Both the position numbers and the translations under genes were made by a program. A DNA stretch of 7,972 nt from a virus (lineage: Duplodnaviria; Heunggongvirae; Uroviricota; Caudoviricetes), in IMG/VR virus record IMGVR_UViG_2681813263_000012; one strand, written 5' to 3'. Under the pieces are notes generated by a model. It saw only the letters and a list, made by a program, of their open reading frames with translations. It was not told where the DNA came from and made no database searches. The first letter of the stretch is position 1. Each line of letters begins with the position of its first letter. Shown here piece by piece: positions 1 through 7,972 of this stretch.

Positions 1-12
1 AGTGTAGCGGTA

Positions 13-984
13 TTAAGCGCAGCTATTTAGTGAATTAAGTAAATTAGTCAGTGACCTTGTAAAGTCTGTTAAACCTTCCTGTGAACCATCGAACATTAAG
101 GCCAGATTATTATTCCATGAATTACTTAAGCGGCCTAACTGCGTCTGAGTAGAGTTAATAATCTTTTCCCATCCACCAGCTTTATCAATCATCCTTCCCA
201 TTTCAGCGGATACTTTAGGAAGAACATCTTTAGAAAGAACCTTACCGTCTTTCATGGCCTTGTCTAATTCTTCCGTAGTCATCCCAAGACTTCTGGCAAA
301 TAACTGAAAAGCACCTGCCATTCTGTCACCTAATTGACCGCGTAGCTCTTCAGCCTGAATCTTTCCTTTAGATGCCATCTGCTCGAAAGCTTTTAAAATC
401 CCGTTAATTTCATCGGTGCTTAGCCCCATTAATCTGGATGTACCAATCACATTAGAAAATAAGGATTCTTTCTGGTCTGCATTCATATCACCAGCACCAG
501 CGGAAAACTTAGCAAAACTGCTTAATGTTTCAATCTGGTCTACACCACTACTATCAGCAAGATTCTTAACAAATTCTGTAGCTCGTTTAGCACCTTCATC
601 ACCTAAAACGAATTGTGCCGCTCGTTGTGATGCTTCTTTTTTCAGACCAACCTCCATAATCCGCCTGTAAGCTTCTAAGGCTGTCTGAAAACTATAAATG
701 GCTGTACCTGCTTTGATTGCACTCGTAGCTAATACATCCAGACTATTTGAAGCATTTTCACTGTGATTATTTTTGCTGGTGGTCTTGTTAAACTTAGAAA
801 GTGTTTCACGAAGAGACTGATTTAACTTTGCTAACTCACGATTAAAAGTTTCGTTTCCAAGTGTCTTGGATTTACTGCTTAAGCTGTAATACTGGCTTTT
901 AAAATACTTCTCAAGCATAGGATTAAAGTCACGAAGCTTGCTCATATTCGCTGAGTAAGCTGCTGTGATTGCTCTGCTTCCGCT
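13..984 (-). CDS. Tail tape-measure-domain protein, C-terminal 324 aa visible; 5' end lost in N-run
   Basis: Minus-strand ORF ending in TAA at 13-15. Visible segment contains ...KGKIQAEELRGQLGDRMAGAFQLFARSLGMTTEELDKAMKDGKV..., which I recognise from memory as the conserved tape-measure domain motif of phage tail length tape measure proteins. The true start is inside the N-run, so the 689-aa ORF-track length is not real. Confidence 0.55.
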   Translation of the reverse strand, partial: SGSRAITAAYSANMSKLRDFNPMLEKYFKSQYYSLSSKSKTLGNETFNRELAKLNQSLRETLSKFNKTTSKNNHSENASNSLDVLATSAIKAGTAIYSFQTALEAYRRIMEVGLKKEASQRAAQFVLGDEGAKRATEFVKNLADSSGVDQIETLSSFAKFSAGAGDMNADQKESLFSNVIGTSRLMGLSTDEINGILKAFEQMASKGKIQAEELRGQLGDRMAGAFQLFARSLGMTTEELDKAMKDGKVLSKDVLPKVSAEMGRMIDKAGGWEKIINSTQTQLGRLSNSWNNNLALMFDGSQEGLTDFTRSLTNLLNSLNSCA

Positions 985-2065
985 NNNNNNNNNNNNNNNN
1001 NNNNNNNNNNNNNNNNNNNNNNNNNNNNNNNNNNNNNNNNNNNNNNNNNNNNNNNNNNNNNNNNNNNNNNNNNNNNNNNNNNNNNNNNNNNNNNNNNNNN
1101 NNNNNNNNNNNNNNNNNNNNNNNNNNNNNNNNNNNNNNNNNNNNNNNNNNNNNNNNNNNNNNNNNNNNNNNNNNNNNNNNNNNNNNNNNNNNNNNNNNNN
1201 NNNNNNNNNNNNNNNNNNNNNNNNNNNNNNNNNNNNNNNNNNNNNNNNNNNNNNNNNNNNNNNNNNNNNNNNNNNNNNNNNNNNNNNNNNNNNNNNNNNN
1301 NNNNNNNNNNNNNNNNNNNNNNNNNNNNNNNNNNNNNNNNNNNNNNNNNNNNNNNNNNNNNNNNNNNNNNNNNNNNNNNNNNNNNNNNNNNNNNNNNNNN
1401 NNNNNNNNNNNNNNNNNNNNNNNNNNNNNNNNNNNNNNNNNNNNNNNNNNNNNNNNNNNNNNNNNNNNNNNNNNNNNNNNNNNNNNNNNNNNNNNNNNNN
1501 NNNNNNNNNNNNNNNNNNNNNNNNNNNNNNNNNNNNNNNNNNNNNNNNNNNNNNNNNNNNNNNNNNNNNNNNNNNNNNNNNNNNNNNNNNNNNNNNNNNN
1601 NNNNNNNNNNNNNNNNNNNNNNNNNNNNNNNNNNNNNNNNNNNNNNNNNNNNNNNNNNNNNNNNNNNNNNNNNNNNNNNNNNNNNNNNNNNNNNNNNNNN
1701 NNNNNNNNNNNNNNNNNNNNNNNNNNNNNNNNNNNNNNNNNNNNNNNNNNNNNNNNNNNNNNNNNNNNNNNNNNNNNNNNNNNNNNNNNNNNNNNNNNNN
1801 NNNNNNNNNNNNNNNNNNNNNNNNNNNNNNNNNNNNNNNNNNNNNNNNNNNNNNNNNNNNNNNNNNNNNNNNNNNNNNNNNNNNNNNNNNNNNNNNNNNN
1901 NNNNNNNNNNNNNNNNNNNNNNNNNNNNNNNNNNNNNNNNNNNNNNNNNNNNNNNNNNNNNNNNNNNNNNNNNNNNNNNNNNNNNNNNNNNNNNNNNNNN
2001 NNNNNNNNNNNNNNNNNNNNNNNNNNNNNNNNNNNNNNNNNNNNNNNNNNNNNNNNNNNNNNNNN
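985..2065. other. N-masked gap (1081 nt)
   Basis: Uninterrupted run of n. It hides the 3' end of the 2066-2590 gene and the 5' end of the tape-measure-like gene. Confidence 1.
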
Positions 2066-2590
2066 CTGAAGAATCTCTTCATCTGTTTTATCAGTCATCA
2101 GAATAAATTGACCAGAACCCCTTAATGCTTGTCTGACATCAATTAACCGGAACCCTTCAGGGATACTTTGAAGAACTTTAGGAACGTCTTCAATCGCTGT
2201 ACCAAAACCATCATTAAAGTTTCCTTCATAATAGATAAACGGGTTTGACTTAATCTCGTAAGCAATATCATATTCTGAAGGTTTCGAGGTTTCTTCGAAG
2301 TTCTTAACAGCATCGTAAGCGACATCAAGTCTAAGACGCTGTGATTTTAAAGCTGGGTAATATTCACGCTCAAGCTCAAATAGTGCTTCAGTTTTGCAGA
2401 TATCAGGCATTTCTTGAGGCTCAGGAGACACAAAGGAAATTACCTTTGGTGACATCTTTAGCTCTTGCTCAAGCTCAATGCGCTTGTCATGCTCTTGACG
2501 CTGAATAGTATGTAGCGGATGTTCACCCTGTGGTGACCAGTCTCCGAAGCTATCAACCTTTTTACCGTTAATATATAAATCGTTTGTCAT
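2066..2590 (-). CDS. Hypothetical phage protein, N-terminal 175 aa visible; 3' end in N-run
   Basis: ATG at 2590-2588 preceded by AGAGGA about 8 nt upstream on the minus strand. Open frame continues uninterrupted to the N-run (MTNDLYINGKKVDSFGDWSPQ...). No family recognised. Confidence 0.6.
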
Positions 2591-2614
2591 TATAATTTCC
2601 TCTAAGTGTGGTTA

Positions 2615-2692
2615 TTTCTTAATAGAGCACCTTCAACGCCAATACACTTAGAAGATGACTTAACGATTTATTAAAGATGCTCTATTAAGAAA
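2615..2692. repeat. Perfect 15-bp inverted repeat (arms 2615-2629 and 2678-2692) with 48-bp spacer, in the leader of the 2590 gene
   Basis: tttcttaatagagca at 2615-2629 is the exact reverse complement of tgctctattaagaaa at 2678-2692, checked base by base. Confidence 0.8.
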
Positions 2693-2721
2693 AGCCCTAA
2701 ACATAATCTGTGAAGGGCTTT
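2691..2721 (-). terminator. Candidate hairpin, weak intrinsic terminator or leader structure
   Basis: 8-bp stem aaagccct (2691-2698) / agggcttt (2714-2721) with a 15-nt loop. On the minus strand it is followed by tcttaat, only moderately U-rich. It abuts the right arm of the 15-bp inverted repeat. Confidence 0.25.
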
Positions 2722-2769
2722 GGAGGTTTGCTTATAACGTTAACGAAGTTTCAGGAAAACTTTCTTTAA

Positions 2770-2816: not shown

Positions 2817-2912
2817 TCATTCGTTCACCCCTTAGTTTATTTGTTATTTCAATTTATAGAAGCACACTCAGCAATCAGAGGTGAAGAGTCTGACTGAACA
2901 AGAACCTGCCAA

Positions 2913-3578
2913 NNNNNNNNNNNNNNNNNNNNNNNNNNNNNNNNNNNNNNNNNNNNNNNNNNNNNNNNNNNNNNNNNNNNNNNNNNNNNNNNNNNNNNNN
3001 NNNNNNNNNNNNNNNNNNNNNNNNNNNNNNNNNNNNNNNNNNNNNNNNNNNNNNNNNNNNNNNNNNNNNNNNNNNNNNNNNNNNNNNNNNNNNNNNNNNN
3101 NNNNNNNNNNNNNNNNNNNNNNNNNNNNNNNNNNNNNNNNNNNNNNNNNNNNNNNNNNNNNNNNNNNNNNNNNNNNNNNNNNNNNNNNNNNNNNNNNNNN
3201 NNNNNNNNNNNNNNNNNNNNNNNNNNNNNNNNNNNNNNNNNNNNNNNNNNNNNNNNNNNNNNNNNNNNNNNNNNNNNNNNNNNNNNNNNNNNNNNNNNNN
3301 NNNNNNNNNNNNNNNNNNNNNNNNNNNNNNNNNNNNNNNNNNNNNNNNNNNNNNNNNNNNNNNNNNNNNNNNNNNNNNNNNNNNNNNNNNNNNNNNNNNN
3401 NNNNNNNNNNNNNNNNNNNNNNNNNNNNNNNNNNNNNNNNNNNNNNNNNNNNNNNNNNNNNNNNNNNNNNNNNNNNNNNNNNNNNNNNNNNNNNNNNNNN
3501 NNNNNNNNNNNNNNNNNNNNNNNNNNNNNNNNNNNNNNNNNNNNNNNNNNNNNNNNNNNNNNNNNNNNNNNNNNNNNN
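2913..3578. other. N-masked gap (666 nt)
   Basis: Run of n immediately downstream (minus sense) of paralog B. It hides the paralog B 3' end and whatever follows. Confidence 1.
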
Positions 3579-3873
3579 GAATATTATCGCTATACAAAAT
3601 TGCTATAGCCGCCTTGAGATATTTTTCAGGGCTAACGCTGTATTTGTTCGTTTCTTCGATAATAAGACGCTTCATGTTTGAGTCGGTAACAGGAAACATA
3701 AAACGCGGTTCACCAGTTTCAATTTCCTGAATAAAGTCTTCAATTTCTTCTGAGTTTTCAGCCATTAGCTTTAGTAATTTATCAAGGTCAATTGATACAC
3801 CGGAATCAGCGAAAGCCTGCACCATCATAGCAGTGTCGCTATCAATGAAAATCTGTAATTCATATTCGTTCAT
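3579..3873 (-). CDS. Small hypothetical protein, paralog B of the 4515-4838 gene; first 98 aa visible, 3' end in N-run
   Basis: ATG at 3873-3871 with AGGAG 8-9 nt upstream (aaaaggagattttaaaaATG). The protein MNEYELQIFIDSDTAMMVQAFADSG...AILYSDNI aligns along its whole length with the 4515-4838 product. The ORF-track TTG start at 3906 is unlikely. Confidence 0.7.
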
Positions 3874-4211: not shown

Positions 4212-4222
4212 NNNNNNNNNNN
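4212..4222. other. N-masked gap (11 nt, not a multiple of 3)
   Basis: Run of n. The reading frame across it cannot be trusted. Confidence 1.
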
Positions 4223-4384
4223 GCAAAGGATTCAATAATGAATGAACAAGAGTACTTTTTGAGATAGCCTCTCAGACTAACCTGAAAGGCCATGACGAAA
4301 AGCATTGCACCTTTCCAACTCAGAATATCCATCCATCGGATTATTGAAAGAAAAATAAGAGAGAATTGCTCTCCCATAATTAAA

Positions 4385-4413
4385 ATTATGCCATGCTTAA
4401 GGTTATTTGTCAA
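4385..4413 (-). promoter_or_regulatory. Candidate sigma70-type promoter (TTGACA-17 nt-CATAAT) reading leftward
   Basis: Minus-strand TTGACA at 4413-4408, a 17-nt spacer, then CATAAT at 4390-4385. A weak hairpin and U-tract follow at about 4377-4346 (gggagag-caatt-ctctctt then ttattttt). Confidence 0.35.
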
Positions 4414-4437
4414 CAGCTTTTTAACAGGTTGATAACA

Positions 4438-4515
4438 TCAATTCTTATTTACCGCATTGTTAATAATACAACCAACAAATAAGCCAAGCAACGTCCAAGC
4501 AATTATTAAACCCAT
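4438..4515 (-). CDS. Candidate 25-aa hydrophobic peptide (MGLIIAWTLLGLFVGCIINNAVNKN), translationally coupled to paralog A
   Basis: Its ATG at 4515-4513 overlaps the paralog A stop as TAATG. GAGGG lies about 9 nt upstream. A single predicted transmembrane-like helix, then TGA at 4440-4438. Too short for the ORF track; found by manual translation. Confidence 0.3.
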   Translation of the reverse strand: MGLIIAWTLLGLFVGCIINNAVNKN

Positions 4516-4838
4516 TAGTGAACCCTCACAGAATCCGTCACCAGAATATTATCACTGTACAGGATTGTCACAGCACCTTTCAAAAATTGCTCTGGGGAAA
4601 TACTGTATATGTTCGTTTGCTCGATAACCAATCTTTTCATGTTGCTGTCTGTAATTGGTAGCATCATTCGAGGCTCGTTAAACTCCACCGACTGAATAAA
4701 GTCAGAGATGTTTTCTGCATTATCAGCCATCAGCTTTAGTAATTTATCAAAATTAATTGCGATACCTGCATCAATGAAGCTTTGCACCATCATAGCAGTG
4801 TCGTTATCAACCATAATTTGCATTGGGTAATTATTCAT
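4515..4838 (-). CDS. Small hypothetical protein (107 aa), paralog A
   Basis: ATG at 4838-4836 with AGGAG about 8 nt upstream (cataggagatttaaaaATG); stop TAA at 4515-4517. Product MNNYPMQIMVDNDTAMMVQSFIDAGIAINFDKLLKLMADN... The longer ORF-track start at 4961 lacks an RBS and lies in the leader. Confidence 0.75.
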   Translation of the reverse strand: MNNYPMQIMVDNDTAMMVQSFIDAGIAINFDKLLKLMADNAENISDFIQSVEFNEPRMMLPITDSNMKRLVIEQTNIYSISPEQFLKGAVTILYSDNILVTDSVRVH

Positions 4839-5005
4839 TTTTAAATCTCCTATGAAACACACCTCAGACCTCTTAAAATAGCCATTCTGAGGCCAGTAAC
4901 CATGCGGGTTACAGAGGGAGTTGCACTGGCTGGTAAGGTAATTTATCAAATTAAGGTGCAACTCTGCCTGTAAAGTGCATTCTACCGTTTCTTAGATGGT
5001 TATTT

Positions 5006-5425
5006 TTAATTGTCTTTATTAATCAATGATTTAACGTAGAAATACTGTCTCCGTGAAATACCATATTTTTCTGTAATGTATCGCTGAGATTGACCAGCAT
5101 TTATGGCCTGAGTGATATCATCACGGTTATAGCGGTTACCACGGGATTTATATTTGTCACCATCCACATCTTCTGAGGTATTGAAGTCTTCAATCAGCTT
5201 AATTGCATCGTGAAGGTCATCTTCTGAGGCATAATCGAAGGTATGGATAATCTCAAAATCACCAGTATCTGCTGGTGCATTCTTCCATCTGGAGAAGCGG
5301 GATTTTAATTGCTGGTGTGTGAAGGGTTCAGCATTACGAGTTAAATCTTTCCATGTTCCGTTATTCTCACGGACAAGGTGACCTCTATGGCGATAAAACG
5401 CATGATAATCAAATGTGCATAGCAT
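5006..5425 (-). CDS. DNA-binding protein with C-terminal Hin/resolvase-type HTH (139 aa)
   Basis: Start overlaps the upstream RHH gene stop (TAATG). The C-terminus ...ITQAINAGQSQRYITEKYGISRRQYFYV fits the helix-turn-helix pattern of resolvase/invertase C-terminal domains. The N-terminal domain is unrecognised. Confidence 0.7.
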   Translation of the reverse strand: MLCTFDYHAFYRHRGHLVRENNGTWKDLTRNAEPFTHQQLKSRFSRWKNAPADTGDFEIIHTFDYASEDDLHDAIKLIEDFNTSEDVDGDKYKSRGNRYNRDDITQAINAGQSQRYITEKYGISRRQYFYVKSLINKDN

Positions 5426-5715
5426 TAAACCCCCAGCTTATCCGCCAGTTGATGAACCTTGGCACTCAACACCTGAATCATTGAGCAACCTGCCACTGCG
5501 GACTGTGCTTTGAGTAGTTCCAGTTGGCCCGTTGTGATTCTGATGGCCTTAGAACCCTCTGCAACGCCCTTGATAGCGTCAAACGGTGTAAGGGCTGTGT
5601 GTTCCTTCAGAATCTCACCAACAAGTGCTGTGTGGCTCATGGCTGGGTATTTGTCTTTGATTGCTGCCAGTCTGGAATATGCCTCTGGCAAAAGGCGTGT
5701 AACTGTGTGTCTCAT
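5425..5715 (-). CDS. Ribbon-helix-helix (CopG/Arc-like) DNA-binding regulator, probably tandem RHH (96 aa)
   Basis: ATG at 5715-5713 with AAGGAA about 8 nt upstream. N-terminus MRHTVTRLLPEAYSRLAAIKDKYPAMSHTALVGEILKEH fits a beta-strand/helix/helix RHH fold pattern. A second similar unit (KAIRITTGQLELLKAQSAVAGCSMIQVLSAKVHQL) follows. Confidence 0.65.
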   Translation of the reverse strand: MRHTVTRLLPEAYSRLAAIKDKYPAMSHTALVGEILKEHTALTPFDAIKGVAEGSKAIRITTGQLELLKAQSAVAGCSMIQVLSAKVHQLADKLGV

Positions 5716-5853
5716 TAAATTTTCCTTCTTAAAATCTTTGACTTATAACTAACTTTAACATATTTATAACATATTGTCAACAACTCATTTACATGTTAAT
5801 ATGGTTGTAGGGGGCTGATACAGGTCATTCCCTTTGATAAATAAGGGGAATTA
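5716..5853. promoter_or_regulatory. Divergent AT-rich intergenic region with promoter-like hexamers and a 9-bp direct repeat (candidate operator)
   Basis: TAACATATT at 5756-5764 and again at 5767-5775, spaced 11 bp. TTGTCAA at 5774-5780 reads as TTGACA on the minus strand and TTGTCA on the plus strand. TTGACT at 5738-5743. Plus-strand TTGTCA-17-TAATAT at 5774-5802. Confidence 0.4.
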
Positions 5854-6039
5854 ATGGGCTTTCTTGAAACAATTGCTGAATCTCACAGATTCGCAAGCTT
5901 AGGTTGCTTTGTGTTTCTGGTGCTTCTTGTGTATCAGCTTTTAAAAATGATTATCGCCAAAAGTACACGATTCAATTTCAGCATTAAGCTTTTCAAATAT
6001 GAAATCACAATTACGATTGATGATGGTAAAACAAACTAA
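5854..6039 (+). CDS. Candidate small membrane protein (61 aa, one hydrophobic helix)
   Basis: The only plus-strand ORF with a good RBS (AAGGGG 5 nt before ATG at 5854). Hydrophobic stretch LGCFVFLVLLVYQLL. Its stop overlaps the stop of the convergent minus-strand gene, so it could be antisense noise. Confidence 0.4.
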   Translation: MGFLETIAESHRFASLGCFVFLVLLVYQLLKMIIAKSTRFNFSIKLFKYEITITIDDGKTN

Positions 6040-6326
6040 CGTTTTGTGATAATATTGGTGGCCTTTAAGTTGCTGGGGTCACCGTCTTTTAATCGTAGCT
6101 GGTGGATTGAATTCCAGATATCAAAATGATACAGCACTGCAAACCTCAAAGCGTCAATCTTTAAATCTGTCACACCATCGTAAAAGAAATAACCCCTCCC
6201 TTCTTTCTTTGGTCTAATCCGGTAAACTTCCCCGTGAGTATCCTTCATAAGATGACCTTCACGAGAAATGCTGTAACGCTTTAACAGGTAATCTTTGTAT
6301 CTCTTTTCACCGTGATATTCTTTCAT
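6036..6326 (-). CDS. Hypothetical protein (96 aa), possibly nuclease-like
   Basis: ATG at 6326-6324 overlaps the upstream stop (TAATG), with GGAGG about 9 nt upstream. C-terminal ...HFDIWNSIHQLRLKDGDPSNLKATNI only loosely resembles HNH-type motifs; this is not a confident assignment. Confidence 0.6.
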   Translation of the reverse strand: MKEYHGEKRYKDYLLKRYSISREGHLMKDTHGEVYRIRPKKEGRGYFFYDGVTDLKIDALRFAVLYHFDIWNSIHQLRLKDGDPSNLKATNIITKR

Positions 6327-6808
6327 TACTTAATTCCTCCACCGGCAAAATACATCTTCGGTTTAATTTTTTGCTTCTTGTCATCCTGAGTTTGTTTCTT
6401 TTTCGGTGAAAGATAATAATCATCTTCACTGTCATCGAATGGGTCTAAACCCGATACTTTGTTCTTTTGTCTTGCAAGCTCGAATCTCTTTTTCTTCTCT
6501 GCCCTCTTAATGGCTTTTTCACGTTCATCCTCTTCATCATCGAAGGGGTCCAACTCATCATCAGTGGCGGGGCACTGTGTGTTTTTATGGTCACTATCAA
6601 CACTCACATCAGTGATTTCTCTGTCTTGTTTAGAAGTCTTTTTAGAGCTTACTTCAAGGTCAGATTCATTCATAGAGAGAAAATCATTTAATTCATCCAA
6701 AGAAAGAAAGTCATCTTCTTTAATATCATCATTAAGTCCAGTCTCTTTATTCTTATCTGTAATATTATTATCTAATGTTTTATCTAATAACTTATCTAAC
6801 TCTAACAC
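6326..6808 (-). CDS. Highly acidic, low-complexity protein (160 aa) with repeated LDPFDD(E/S)EDD motif and a basic C-terminal tail
   Basis: Probable GTG start at 6808-6806 with AGAGG about 8 nt upstream and an in-frame stop just before it. The first internal ATG lacks an RBS. D/E-rich with two LDPFDD copies. The 5' coding region coincides with the AT-rich origin-like repeats. Confidence 0.55.
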   Translation of the reverse strand: MLELDKLLDKTLDNNITDKNKETGLNDDIKEDDFLSLDELNDFLSMNESDLEVSSKKTSKQDREITDVSVDSDHKNTQCPATDDELDPFDDEEDEREKAIKRAEKKKRFELARQKNKVSGLDPFDDSEDDYYLSPKKKQTQDDKKQKIKPKMYFAGGGIK

Positions 6809-6886
6809 GGGTGACCTCTAACACGGGTGACATTTTGTCACTACCCCCATGACATTTTGTCACTGGTAGTGGTGTCATTTTGTCTT
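6753..6886. repeat. Origin-like repeat block: AT-rich TTATCTAA 12-mers, a 16-bp tandem repeat x2, and three iteron-like repeats at 22-bp phasing
   Basis: TTATCTAA at 6768, 6780 and 6792 (12-bp spacing), plus ttatctgt at 6753. ctctaacacgggtgac at 6800-6815 and 6816-6831, perfect tandem. gtgacattttgtcact at 6827-6842, atgacattttgtcact at 6849-6864, and degenerate ggtgtcattttgtctt at 6871-6886. All checked base by base. Confidence 0.6.
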
Positions 6887-7230
6887 ACTGAGGCTGCAAC
6901 TTCCTGTGATGTAGGTCTTACAAGTAATTCCGGCTTATCATCCAGTGTGAATACACGATAAGTGCTTTGACGCCCCTGATTCTTTTGCACCTGAATTAAA
7001 CCGTGTTTCTCAAGTGTCTCAATGGCTCTGATTGCTGTTCTCTTTGATACACCAGCCATATAAGCGAGATGGTCAATACTTGGTGAATATGATTTGTATT
7101 TCTCTTCATAGAAGTCACAGCTATGGACCATGACCATATAAATCAATCTTGCTGCTGCGTTAATTTCTTCTGAAAGTTGAGAGATTCGCACATCAAATTT
7201 ATAAAACTGATTTGGGTTATATTTAGACAT
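6841..7230 (-). CDS. Replication initiator-like protein, lambda-O N-terminal-type winged HTH (129 aa)
   Basis: ATG at 7230-7228 with GAGGT about 9 nt upstream; stop TAG at 6841-6843. Segment ...SIDHLAYMAGVSKRTAIRAIETLEKHGLIQVQ... matches the HTH pattern I recall for phage O-type and plasmid replication-initiator N-terminal domains. The gene's 3' end overlaps the iterons. Confidence 0.65.
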   Translation of the reverse strand: MSKYNPNQFYKFDVRISQLSEEINAAARLIYMVMVHSCDFYEEKYKSYSPSIDHLAYMAGVSKRTAIRAIETLEKHGLIQVQKNQGRQSTYRVFTLDDKPELLVRPTSQEVAASVRQNDTTTSDKMSWG

Positions 7231-7460
7231 TCATAAATTACCTCATACGTGAAAAGGCCAACCGGATAAAACCGATTAGCCTGTGTGATTAAAATATCTG
7301 GGGGATTGATGGACTGATAAAGAAGTCCATGCCTGAAACAGTACGATGATTAAAACGCTGAGGTATACCCTGAATGAGAGGTTAATATACGCCAACCATC
7401 TGACACCTCCCCAAGTGTTACCACTTCAAGACATGAACTTTTTTATCAGCCCATATAGAA

Positions 7461-7489
7461 ACTATAACAGATGTGATTATAAATTGCAA
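7461..7489 (-). promoter_or_regulatory. Candidate sigma70-type promoter (TTGCAA-17 nt-TATAGT) for the replication operon
   Basis: Minus-strand TTGCAA at 7489-7484, a 17-nt spacer, then TATAGT at 7466-7461. It lies in the 363-bp non-coding gap upstream of the initiator gene. Confidence 0.3.
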
Positions 7490-7593
7490 CAATTATTTCA
7501 CAGAATGATTACTGATTGGTCATTTATTGTTCACGGGGATACTTCTTAACATCTGAATCACCTGTCTTGTAAATGACCATATTTATGAGAATT

Positions 7594-7972
7594 TTAGCTC
7601 AACCTTTGAGCAATCCTGTATGACGTGCTCAGAGGCATTCTGAGAGCATCTGCAATGTACTTAATGGGTTTTCCTTGCCTGTATAGTTTTATGAAGCTGT
7701 CGAGCGTCTCAGGTGGGTAAATGGTGGGTCTTCCTCTTAGTCCACCACGGTTAATGATGGTTAACGGTAGCAATGTATCAGCACAGCAAACCATCTGTGT
7801 AATTTCATGCTTACGTGGTTCTTTTTTAAAAACAACGACTGCACTTGGAAACGGTGACCTAATAGTAAGCCTGTTATGCCCTGCTGGTGGAAGGTATTTA
7901 ACTGCACGATGAAGAATACGGATTTCATGACAGTGGTTATTGCTGTAAATGTGCCTAAGCCAGTAGCTGGTG
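7594..7972 (-). CDS. DNA-binding protein with C-terminal Hin/resolvase-type HTH; 5' end beyond window
   Basis: Manual translation shows the frame of ORF 7594-7794 stays open up to the window edge (...TSYWLRHIYSNNHCHEIRILHRAVKYLPPAGHNRLTIRSPFPSAVVVFKKEPRKHEITQMVCC...). C-terminus GRPTIYPPETLDSFIKLYRQGKPIKYIADALRMPLSTSYRIAQ fits the resolvase-type HTH pattern. No serine-recombinase catalytic motifs in the visible part. Confidence 0.45.
   Translation of the reverse strand, partial: TSYWLRHIYSNNHCHEIRILHRAVKYLPPAGHNRLTIRSPFPSAVVVFKKEPRKHEITQMVCCADTLLPLTIINRGGLRGRPTIYPPETLDSFIKLYRQGKPIKYIADALRMPLSTSYRIAQRLS

What the first reader, a model, noticed from the sequence alone, without database searches (positions are those of the whole stretch)
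13..2590. Tape-measure-domain protein placed next to replication/accessory genes, with the domain near the C-terminus
The visible C-terminal 324 aa carries the KGKIQAEELRGQL...LGMTTEELDKAMKDGKV motif that I associate with phage tail tape-measure proteins, but it sits in the last third of the protein. Upstream, after a single hypothetical gene, come regulatory and replication genes rather than terminase, portal or capsid genes. The N-runs are too short to hide a head module. This suggests a non-canonical gene order (P2-like proximity of tail and early genes), a satellite or defective element, or a tape-measure-domain protein with another role.
Basis: partly seen in the sequence, partly recalled or inferred. 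Interest (0 to 1): 0.45.

Follow-up and report, generated by a model that had tools for sequence, protein, structure and literature searches.

The report
IS-cut tape-measure gene of satellite-like island
The tape-measure gene is real but broken by an insertion sequence, and it belongs to a decayed copy of a small mobile island of E. coli and Shigella that carries its own versions of two tail-core proteins of virulent Felix O1-type phages, probably so that it can exploit or sabotage those phages.

Summary
The tape-measure (TMP) domain is real (Pfam TMP_3, E=1.3e-21). Its position near the C-terminus is an artefact. Window 1-30 is the end of IS630, which interrupts the gene at about codon 421 of 688. 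The 689-aa ORF is produced by the N-run. In intact relatives the domain lies at residues 229-396.

The window is a decayed, mosaic copy of an ~11-kb, 39% GC island. About 9% of complete E. coli genomes match some part of the window. Intact copies sit at three or more chromosomal sites. They carry a serine recombinase, a Dam-type methylase, a lambda-O-like initiator with internal iterons, and a conserved block p107-p236-p71-TMP-tube initiator. They have no head, terminase, sheath or tube genes.

TMP and tube initiator are homologues of Felixounavirus gp17 and gp18 (PDB 9NDY). In some islands 510-545 nt of the initiator gene is 93-94% identical in DNA to phage mio. The TMP genes are under purifying selection. 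The predicted attP junction occurs in an 11.5-kb metagenome contig that is a circular permutation of the island.

The best reading is a satellite or parasite of virulent Felix O1-like phages, analogous to Vibrio PLEs. This is inferred and was not demonstrated.

The parts
1..30 (+). Right-hand terminal inverted repeat of IS630. The window begins about 30 nt inside the IS, and the rest of the IS lies to the left of the window.
   Evidence: Window 1-30 is identical to the IS630 3' end of pCP301. It matched IS630 in 125 Shigella/E. coli plasmid records.
29..984 (-). Internal fragment of the island tape-measure gene (codons ~103-421 of 688), including the TMP_3 core. The ORF then runs into IS630 and stops at 13-15.
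   Evidence: Pfam TMP_3 E=1.3e-21. 96.6-98% nt identity to annotated 688-aa TMP genes in E. coli GB089 and 47-1826. Alignment shows the fragment ends ...LTNLLNSL|NSCA.
985..2065 (-). Masked run. By colinearity it hides TMP codons 1-102, a ~70-aa gene (p71) and the last 61 codons of the 236-aa gene. It is 205 nt longer than the equivalent stretch in the closest relative.
   Evidence: Window 984 aligns to L013 8124 and window 2066 to L013 9001, i.e. 877 nt against 1082 nt. Annotation of L013, L008 and L007.
2066..2590 (-). N-terminal 175 codons of p236, a conserved island protein of unknown function that NCBI labels 'transposase' without support.
   Evidence: No Pfam, PHROG, NCBIfam or PADLOC hit. 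2964 90%-identity clusters, mostly close relatives and mostly E. coli, Shigella, Salmonella and E. albertii. Only 18 clusters at 50% identity. AF2 model has pLDDT 78.8 and shows a helical hairpin plus a small alpha/beta domain, with no fold match at E<1e-3.
2580..2730 (-). Highly structured leader upstream of p236: a terminator-like hairpin followed by a 21-bp hairpin. The Shine-Dalgarno region can also pair with an upstream arm.
   Evidence: Inverted repeats 2615-2636/2671-2692, 2598-2609/2644-2655 and 2691-2703/2709-2721. RNA fold -49.7 kcal/mol, z=-7.3.
3580..3873 (-). p107 paralogue A (C-terminus masked). It is the first gene of the conserved block p107-p236-p71-TMP-TI.
   Evidence: 66% identical to paralogue B. 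91% nt identity to L005 and 82% to L013. Synteny.
4515..4838 (-). p107 paralogue B (107 aa), identical to the Shigella sonnei copy.
   Evidence: Exact protein found in S. sonnei 53G, Ss046 and others. Family of 3253 clusters with no domain hit. AF2 confidence is low.
5006..5715 (-). Two island accessory genes (139 aa and 96 aa) of unknown function.
   Evidence: No family hits. Conserved in L001, L002, L005 and L008.
6036..6326 (-). 96-aa island gene of unknown function.
6326..7230 (-). Replication initiator, here split into 129 aa (HTH_36) plus 160 aa, with the origin-like iterons between or inside the two parts.
   Evidence: HTH_36 E=1.9e-7. The intact 329-aa homologue hits the PHROG replication-initiation/O-like families. 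Iterons GTGACATTTTGTC x3 at 6826-6884 and a 16-nt tandem duplication at 6800-6831.
7594..7972 (-). 3' part of the island Dam-type N6-adenine methyltransferase gene. The gene runs off the right end of the window.
   Evidence: Open frame. Homologous 220-aa gene with PF05869 in L001-L008. TIGR01712 and the PADLOC orphan MTase model.

Best explanation
The feature is the middle part of a genuine phage-type tape-measure gene that IS630 has interrupted. It lies in a decayed, mosaic copy of an ~11-kb integrative island.

Anatomy of intact islands (shown):
- They insert through a serine recombinase, for example into yecE with a 7-bp core TGATTTT.
- They carry a lambda-O-like initiator with iterons inside its own gene and a Dam-type methylase.
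- At the end of the same transcription direction they carry the block p107-p236-p71-TMP-tube initiator (TI).
- TMP and TI are the counterparts of Felixounavirus gp17 and gp18, the two proteins that form the tail core on the baseplate hub. The TI hexamer nucleates the tube around the TMP.
- The island has no capsid, terminase, sheath, tube or fibre genes.

Proposed mechanism (inferred):
1. When a virulent Felix O1-like myovirus infects the cell, the island is switched on, excises and replicates.
2. Its TMP and TI enter helper-made baseplates through the conserved interfaces.
3. The result is chimeric tails, 19-54 residues of TMP shorter, which carry the island and/or reduce the yield of the helper.
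This is the logic shown experimentally for Vibrio cholerae PLEs and phage ICP1.

Status of the steps: homology, synteny, selection, recent gene exchange with the phage and the existence of an excised circular or concatemeric form are shown. Induction by the phage, packaging and chimeric tails are inferred. The copy in this window can no longer make a full-length TMP from the DNA visible here.
For: 1. Identity of the fragment and the IS630 junction.
2. Intact islands of the same plan lie at yecE (L008, L001, L017), tonB/yciI (L013, L005) and dinB/lafU (L007). 499 of 5426 complete E. coli genomes match part of the window.
3. TMP is 29% identical over 100% of its length to Ounavirinae TMPs and matches 9NDY_F at E=9e-75. 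TI is ~70% identical to the gene immediately downstream of the TMP in 254 Felix O1-like phage records and matches 9NDY_A 'tube initiator gp018' at E=2.8e-108.
4. Conservation follows the interfaces. The TMP N-terminal ~50 aa are 58-71% identical, the core is 77% identical, and the C-terminal hub-binding tail ...QEDxLxSSxYPEE is kept. The rest is 8-30% identical. In L001 and L007, TI residues ~10-185 are 96-100% identical to phage mio (93-94% at DNA level over 510-545 nt), while the C-terminal ~70 aa diverge.
5. Nine TMP genes are intact at 688-693 codons with dN/dS 0.12-0.37. The block p107-p236-p71-TMP-TI(-recombinase) is syntenic in about 15 loci.
6. GC content is 38.9% in the window and island, 39.1% in phage mio, and 51-53% in the E. 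coli flanks.
7. A ~60-nt non-coding element upstream of the island operon is 86-87% identical (29/30 in its core) to the divergent-promoter intergenic region of phage mio. It is present in all islands examined.
8. The predicted attP junction occurs exactly once in the metagenome collection. The contig is 11,473 bp and is a circular permutation of the whole island with no chromosomal flank.
9. Precedent: PLEs encode their own TMP, chaperone and hub protein and build chimeric tails on ICP1 parts (PMC12987554).
Against: - No experiment or virion-derived sequence links the island to Felix O1-like phages.
- The attP scan of viral contigs found nothing. IMG/VR hits are integrated copies.
- No homologue of the phage tail-assembly chaperones, of any capsid-size or packaging factor, or of any PLE-specific protein was detected.
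- An 11-kb genome is about one eighth of the helper's 83-86 kb, and no packaging solution is evident.
- The circular contig proves excision, or tandem or concatemer formation, but does not prove phage-mediated transfer. The type of sample is unknown.
- The orientation of the phage-like non-coding element relative to the island operon is ambiguous.
- The window copy itself is degenerate.
Confidence: 0.6

Rival explanations
1. Defence-only island. The island TMP and tube initiator act as dominant-negative decoys that poison tail assembly of Felix O1-like phages. This protects the clonal population, and the island is not packaged or transduced.
For: The homology and interface-conservation data are the same as for the main explanation. 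Tail-assembly interference is an established defence strategy (PMC11364771; Rta in PMC12987554). No packaging or capsid-remodelling gene is recognisable.
Against: Full-length TMPs are maintained under purifying selection together with a recombinase, an initiator with iterons, and an excised circular form. These features fit a self-mobilising element better than a fixed defence locus. There is no PADLOC hit. This reading is not exclusive of the main explanation, because PLEs do both.
Confidence: 0.2
2. An integrative plasmid-like or mobilisable element that moves by other means, such as conjugative hitch-hiking. It captured TMP and TI genes from a Felix O1-like phage as passive or otherwise-used cargo.
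For: It has its own initiator, iterons, recombinase and circular form. Most island genes have no phage homologue.
Against: - No relaxase or other conjugation domain was recognised.
- TMP and TI are the most conserved syntenic block of the family.
- Recombination with contemporary phages is repeated and recent, at 93-94% nt identity.
- GC content matches the phage.
- A phage-like regulatory element is present.
All of these indicate ongoing interaction with these phages.
Confidence: 0.1
3. An ordinary defective prophage, or a phage with non-canonical (P2-like) gene order, whose head module was lost or lies nearby.
For: This particular copy is clearly decayed: it has the IS630 insertion, a split rep gene and duplicated segments.
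Against: Intact copies at three or more sites have the same compact 11-kb content bounded by chromosomal genes, with no head, terminase, sheath or tube genes. The homologous phages are virulent 83-90-kb myoviruses that do not integrate. TMP is under purifying selection.
Confidence: 0.04
4. A tape-measure-domain protein with a non-tail role, for example a membrane or secretion function.
For: There is no tail operon around it. The TMP body between the conserved segments is highly diverged.
Against: It is colinear over its full length with a structurally placed TMP. Its conserved hub-binding C-terminus and its obligatory pairing with the tube-initiator gene argue for a tail role.
Confidence: 0.05

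Closest known systems
[quoted passage not shown]
   Same: - A small chromosomal island with a large serine recombinase and its own replication initiator.
- No capsid genes.
- It encodes a TMP plus the hub-proximal protein encoded next to the helper's TMP gene, both diverged from the helper versions (PLE 20% and 41%; here 29% and ~70-100%).
- The TMP is shorter than the helper's.
- The presumed helper is a virulent myovirus.
- Decayed, IS-ridden copies are known in both systems (PMC9410903).
   Different: - No sequence relationship was shown. The initiator is HTH_36/lambda-O-like, not RepA_N.
- ~11 kb rather than ~17-18 kb.
- No recognisable chaperone, NixI, CapR, TcaP or LidI equivalents.
- Different hosts (E. 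coli, Shigella, Salmonella, E. albertii) and different helper lineage (Ounavirinae).
- All functional steps are untested here.
Felixounavirus tail core: gp17 (TMP) and gp18 (tube initiator) of phage Bas63, PDB 9NDY (PMC12609058).
   Same: Direct homologues (E=9e-75 and 2.8e-108), with the same gene order TMP then TI. The TMP C-terminal segment that contacts the hub is conserved. The TI tube-like domain is nearly identical in some islands.
   Different: - The island genes are not in a tail operon.
- The TMP is 19-54 residues shorter and diverged outside three segments.
- The TI C-terminal extension is diverged.
- No chaperone genes are present upstream.
cf-PICIs, PICIs and P4-like satellites of Enterobacteria.
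   Same: Small integrative elements of E. coli that depend on phages. Some cf-PICIs carry putative tmp genes (PMC12987554, Extended Data Fig. 10 legend).
   Different: None of the defining genes was found: tyrosine integrase, AlpA, primase-helicase, capsid/portal/protease, small terminase, Sid/Psu/Delta.

Membership tests
Phage tail tape-measure protein (Pfam TMP_3 / TIGR02675; Felixounavirus gp17 type) | Significant match to the TMP core domain above the curated threshold | tested here: met
   PF20155 E=1.3e-21, 77.7 bits against a cut-off of 41, on the window fragment. TIGR02675 scores 60 bits against a cut-off of 21 on the intact homologue.
Phage tail tape-measure protein (Pfam TMP_3 / TIGR02675; Felixounavirus gp17 type) | Full-length colinearity with a TMP whose place in a tail is structurally established, including the hub-binding C-terminus | tested here: inconclusive
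   This is met by intact island copies. The window copy covers only residues 103-421 and lacks the C-terminal 267 residues because of IS630. Whether the distal part survives beyond the IS cannot be seen.
Phage tail tape-measure protein (Pfam TMP_3 / TIGR02675; Felixounavirus gp17 type) | Encoded in a tail operon: chaperone (G/GT) upstream, hub or tube-initiator gene downstream, tube and sheath genes nearby | tested here: not met
   The tube-initiator gene is downstream in all intact islands. No chaperone, tube or sheath gene is present anywhere in the island.
PLE family (V. cholerae) in the strict, homology-based sense | Large serine (or tyrosine) recombinase at one end, ~17-18 kb, ORF-poor region with origin | tested here: inconclusive
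   A 507-aa large serine recombinase and a ~1-kb ORF-poor region are present in intact islands. The size is ~11 kb, and the origin-like iterons lie inside the rep gene.
PLE family (V. cholerae) in the strict, homology-based sense | RepA_N (or Pol I-type) initiator and NixI, CapR, TcaP and LidI homologues | tested here: not met
   The initiator hits HTH_36 and the PHROG O-like families, not RepA_N. The other island proteins have no family hits. PLE proteins themselves were not available for direct comparison.
PLE family (V. cholerae) in the strict, homology-based sense | Helper-triggered excision, replication, transduction and restriction of the helper | not testable with these tools
   Only an excised circular or concatemeric form was detected, in one metagenome contig.
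Phage satellite that remodels helper tails (functional class) | Encodes homologues of the helper's TMP and hub-proximal protein but lacks the remaining virion genes | tested here: met
cf-PICI / PICI / P4-like satellites | Tyrosine integrase with AlpA and primase, plus capsid-forming genes (cf-PICI), packaging-redirection genes (PICI), or sid/psu/delta (P4) | tested here: not met
   No such domains were found in any island protein.
IS630 | Terminal inverted repeat identical to reference copies, insertion at a TA dinucleotide | tested here: met
   30/30 identity to the pCP301 IS630 end. The junction reads ...CTATT-TA-GTGAATT, which is compatible with a TA target. Relatives have CTG where the window has CTA, a synonymous Leu codon. 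Only 30 nt of the IS are in the window.

The most novel reading that the evidence does not exclude
This island family is the first satellite of a virulent phage described in E. coli, Shigella and Salmonella. It is an evolutionarily independent analogue of Vibrio PLEs. It hijacks Felix O1-like myoviruses by substituting its own tape measure and tube initiator to make chimeric tails, and it thereby limits these phages, which are widely used for typing, biocontrol and therapy.
Probability: 0.45. Interest if true: 0.8.

Novelty: new variant of a known kind. Interest (0 to 1): 0.68.

Why it matters
Satellites that rebuild the helper's tail were shown only recently, and only for Vibrio PLE and ICP1. 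If this island family works the same way, it would show that the strategy evolved independently in Enterobacteria. About 9% of complete E. coli genomes match some part of the window, which gives a sense of the family's spread.

An E. coli system would also be genetically tractable. Helpers are available, including BASEL phage Bas63, which has a solved baseplate structure.

There is a practical side as well. Felix O1-like phages are used for Salmonella typing, food biocontrol and therapy. A widespread island that parasitises or blocks them would affect host range, efficacy and gene transfer.

For annotation, three points follow. The label 'tape measure protein' here is a pseudogene fragment. 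The label 'transposase' on p236 is unsupported. The 'phage baseplate protein' is a tube initiator.

Tried and rejected
- Megablast of the TMP fragment against phage genomes gave no hit. Against plasmids, only the IS630 end matched.
- PADLOC found no known defence system.
- The Tai tail-assembly-inhibition systems are unrelated.
- p236 has no family hit. A reasonable AF2 model (pLDDT 78.8) gave no significant fold match in PDB or BFVD, so it could be called neither a chaperone nor a transposase.
- The p107 model was too poor (pLDDT 55) for a fold search, so the idea that it is the missing tail chaperone could not be tested.
- Local tblastn of the other island proteins against phage mio gave no hits.
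- Two scans of species-representative genomes failed to find the source of the window. They returned only related E. albertii contigs. The sequence to the left of the window and the masked stretches therefore remain unknown.
- IMG/VR relatives are integrated copies inside larger predicted prophage regions. They are not free islands or concatemers. The attP scan of viral contigs was negative.
- Four literature searches found no paper that links satellites with Felix O1-like phages or describes this island. A fifth search found yecE listed only as a gene disrupted by prophage integration.
Full report
**1. What is in the window**

Almost all genes are on the minus strand. It hits Pfam TMP_3 at E=1.3e-21, well above the curated threshold, so the tape-measure assignment is sound.

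The 689-aa ORF 13..2082 is produced by translating through 1081 N. The gene that starts at 2590 is in another frame. The window has four N-runs: 985-2065, 2770-2816, 2913-3578 and 4212-4222.

**2. Why the domain looks C-terminal**

Window 1-45 matched IS630 in 125 Shigella and E. coli plasmids. An alignment shows that window 1-30 is identical to the IS630 terminal repeat. From nt 28-29 onward the window is identical to the TMP gene of E. coli GB089.

In 115 complete E. coli genomes, the segment 29-984 is covered at 80% or more inside genes annotated as tape measure protein. The listed hits are 95-98% identical. These genes are 688 codons long and continue 805 nt beyond the point where the window switches to IS630.

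The fragment therefore equals residues 103-421. The last four residues and the stop codon come from the IS. In the intact protein the TMP_3 domain is at 229-396 of 688. The junction is compatible with a simple insertion at a TA. Whether the distal third of the gene survives on the other side of the IS cannot be seen.

By colinearity with the closest relative (E. coli 47-1826, L013), the masked run hides three things: TMP codons 1-102, a ~70-aa gene, and the last 61 codons of the 236-aa gene. The masked run is 205 nt longer than expected.

**3. The element it belongs to**

A 139-aa window protein was looked up by exact sequence, and the window was searched against E. coli genomes. Both led to the same compact island.

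In E. coli ZJ3920 the island splits yecE and is 11.1 kb long. A 7-bp core, TGATTTT, is repeated at both ends. Its genes, in order, are:
- a 507-aa large serine recombinase
- a 257-aa 'phage baseplate protein' (Pfam Dit_like)
- the 688-aa TMP
- genes of 71, 236, 107, 141, 96 and 96 aa
- a 329-aa initiator (HTH_36; PHROG replication-initiation/O-like families)
- a Dam-type methylase
- about 1 kb without ORFs

The same plan occurs between tonB and yciI (L013, L005) and between dinB and lafU (L007). No copy has head, terminase, portal, sheath, tube or fibre genes.

499 of 5426 complete E. coli genomes match part of the window. Protein relatives also occur in Shigella, Salmonella and E. albertii.

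The block p107-p236-p71-TMP-TI is syntenic in about 15 loci. TMP alleles are 43-97% identical to one another. p236 has two very different allele types. Nine TMP genes are intact at 688-693 codons, with dN/dS of 0.12-0.37. This is a maintained gene in a coherent mobile element, not random prophage debris.

**4. The window copy is decayed and mosaic**

- Positions 4223-7972 are 99.4% identical to the Shigella sonnei copy. In that copy the p236 gene is the other allele and is itself cut by an IS.
- Positions 29-2769 are closest to E. coli 47-1826.
- Between these parts lies a second, divergent p107 paralogue.
- The initiator gene is split into 129 and 160 aa. The window also has a 16-nt tandem duplication next to the iterons that S. 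sonnei lacks.

**5. Relationship to Felix O1-like phages**

tblastn against 50,697 phage records gave the following.
- The island TMP matches Ounavirinae TMPs over 100% of its length at 29% identity.
- The Dit-like protein is about 70% identical to the gene immediately downstream of the TMP in 254 Felix O1-like records.

Sequence search of the PDB gave 9NDY_A 'tube initiator protein gp018' at E=2.8e-108 and 9NDY_F 'tape measure protein gp017' at E=9e-75. In the Bas63 structure, the TI hexamer sits on the hub and adapts its threefold symmetry to the sixfold tube. The last 25 TMP residues contact the hub (PMC12609058).

The conservation pattern is informative.
- The island and phage TMPs share the N-terminal ~50 residues (58-71% identical), the core (77%) and the C-terminal tail (...QEDxLxSSxYPEE). 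The rest is 8-30% identical. The island TMP is 19-54 residues shorter.
- In two islands, TI residues ~10-185 are 96-100% identical to phage mio (93-94% at DNA level over 510-545 nt). The C-terminal ~70 residues diverge. This shows recent recombination with contemporary phages.

Three further links to the phage:
- GC content is 38.9% for the window and island, 39.1% for the phage, and 51-53% for the chromosomal flanks.
- A ~60-nt non-coding element upstream of the island operon is 86-87% identical to the intergenic region between the divergent units mio_113 and mio_114. Its core matches at 29/30. It recurs in every island examined.
- Related short motifs occur in other divergent-promoter regions of the phage. 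Felix O1 transcription starts from such regions (PMC3185647).

No other island protein has a homologue in the phage.

**6. Evidence of mobility**

From attL, attR and the K-12 attB I predicted the attP junction. One scan of the metagenome collection found a single exact match. It lies in ERZ1090866 NODE_760, a contig of 11,473 bp at 6.1-fold coverage.

The contig is a circular permutation of the whole island. It runs from rep and Dam through the right end and attP into the recombinase, TI, a 711-aa TMP, p71, p236 and back to rep. It has no chromosomal sequence. It breaks in the rep iterons and ends in a sequencing adapter.

So an excised circular, tandem or concatemeric form exists in nature. 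The scan of viral contigs was negative. IMG/VR relatives are integrated copies.

**7. Mechanism and rivals**

The closest known system is the V. cholerae PLE. PLEs encode their own TMP, chaperone and hub protein (20%, 20% and 41% identical to ICP1's). They assemble chimeric, shorter tails on ICP1 parts. [quoted passage not shown]

The E. coli island matches this logic in five respects:
- a large serine recombinase
- its own initiator
- no capsid genes
- a TMP plus the hub-proximal neighbour of the helper's TMP
- a virulent myovirus as the likely partner

It is not a PLE by homology. The initiator is of a different type, the size differs, and no PLE-specific proteins were found.

I therefore favour a PLE-like satellite or parasite of Felix O1-like phages (confidence about 0.6). 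The rivals are:
- a defence-only decoy model (0.2), which is not mutually exclusive with the main explanation
- an otherwise-mobilised element with phage-derived cargo (0.1)
- a non-tail role for the TMP (0.05)
- a plain defective prophage or P2-like gene order (0.04)

Induction, packaging of an 11-kb genome by an 83-86-kb phage, and chimeric tails are all inferred.

**8. The 175-aa upstream product**

This is the N-terminus of p236. NCBI often labels it 'transposase', but it has no Pfam, NCBIfam, PHROG or PADLOC hit. An exhaustive search found only 18 clusters at 50% identity.

An AF2 model (pLDDT 78.8) shows a long helical hairpin with a small alpha/beta domain. It has no significant match in PDB or BFVD. 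Its function is unknown. Its fixed position before p71 and TMP suggests a role in the tail module.

**9. Verdict**

The domain and the odd neighbourhood are real. The C-terminal position is an artefact of masking and IS630. The window copy is a relic, but it points to an island family that I could not find described in the literature available here.

Noticed in passing
window 6800-6884: There are three 13-14-nt iterons (GGTGACATTTTGTC-like) spaced 22-23 nt apart, in the middle of the replication-initiator gene. Other islands (L008, L001) carry different iterons (CCAACCAGAATTTGGTTACCTACCCAA x3) at the same place, as with lambda O and ori. In the window the gene is split into 129 and 160 aa. A 16-nt tandem duplication (6800-6831) is absent from S. 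sonnei.
   Followed up: partly
window 2580-2730 (minus strand): The leader upstream of p236 folds into a terminator-like hairpin plus a 21-bp hairpin (-49.7 kcal/mol, z=-7.3). A further inverted repeat can pair with the Shine-Dalgarno region. This may act as an attenuator or antitermination point separating the early genes from the tail module.
   Followed up: partly
window 3580-3873 and 4515-4838: There are two paralogues (66% identical) of the 107-aa first gene of the conserved block, where relatives have one. The low-confidence model shows two beta-alpha-alpha units, possibly tandem ribbon-helix-helix.
   Followed up: partly
window 5854-6039 (+): This is the only clear plus-strand gene. It encodes a 61-aa protein with one hydrophobic helix, and it is also called in S. 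sonnei genomes. PLE-type satellites carry a small membrane protein (LidI), but no homology was tested.
   Followed up: no
window 2817-2912 and N-run 2770-2816: These 96 nt are 100% identical to S. sonnei and include the ATG of the other p236 allele. After the 47-nt masked run, the sequence switches to the upstream region of the E. coli-type allele. A recombination junction between two island types is therefore hidden in the mask.
   Followed up: partly
L008 12750-12812 and 12984-13006 (outside the window); L001 6973-7035; L002 7070-7127: A non-coding element upstream of the island Dam gene is nearly identical to intergenic DNA of phage mio. One match is 29/30 to mio 78795-78824 and another is 22/23 to mio 966-988. 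The element contains palindromes such as GGATATCC and CTTTTAAG-type repeats. It may be a regulatory or replication mimic.
   Followed up: partly
L038 (ERZ1090866 NODE_760, 11,473 bp): This metagenome contig is a circular permutation of an intact island through the predicted attP. It has a Nextera adapter at its 3' end. The sample type is unknown.
   Followed up: partly
L001 14789-15298 and L007 10464-11008: The tube-initiator genes of these islands are 93-94% identical in DNA to phage mio. In L008 and L013 the figure is about 70%. This indicates recent and repeated exchange between islands and virulent phages.
   Followed up: yes
p236 homologues (P0001-P0120): The NCBI product name 'transposase' has been propagated to thousands of entries, with no domain or fold support.
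   Followed up: yes
L013 10541-10828; L002 6268-6819; L007 18546-19091: The accessory content varies between islands. It includes an HNH endonuclease and an extra small serine recombinase at the far end. The region between p107 and rep looks like a cargo hot spot.
   Followed up: no
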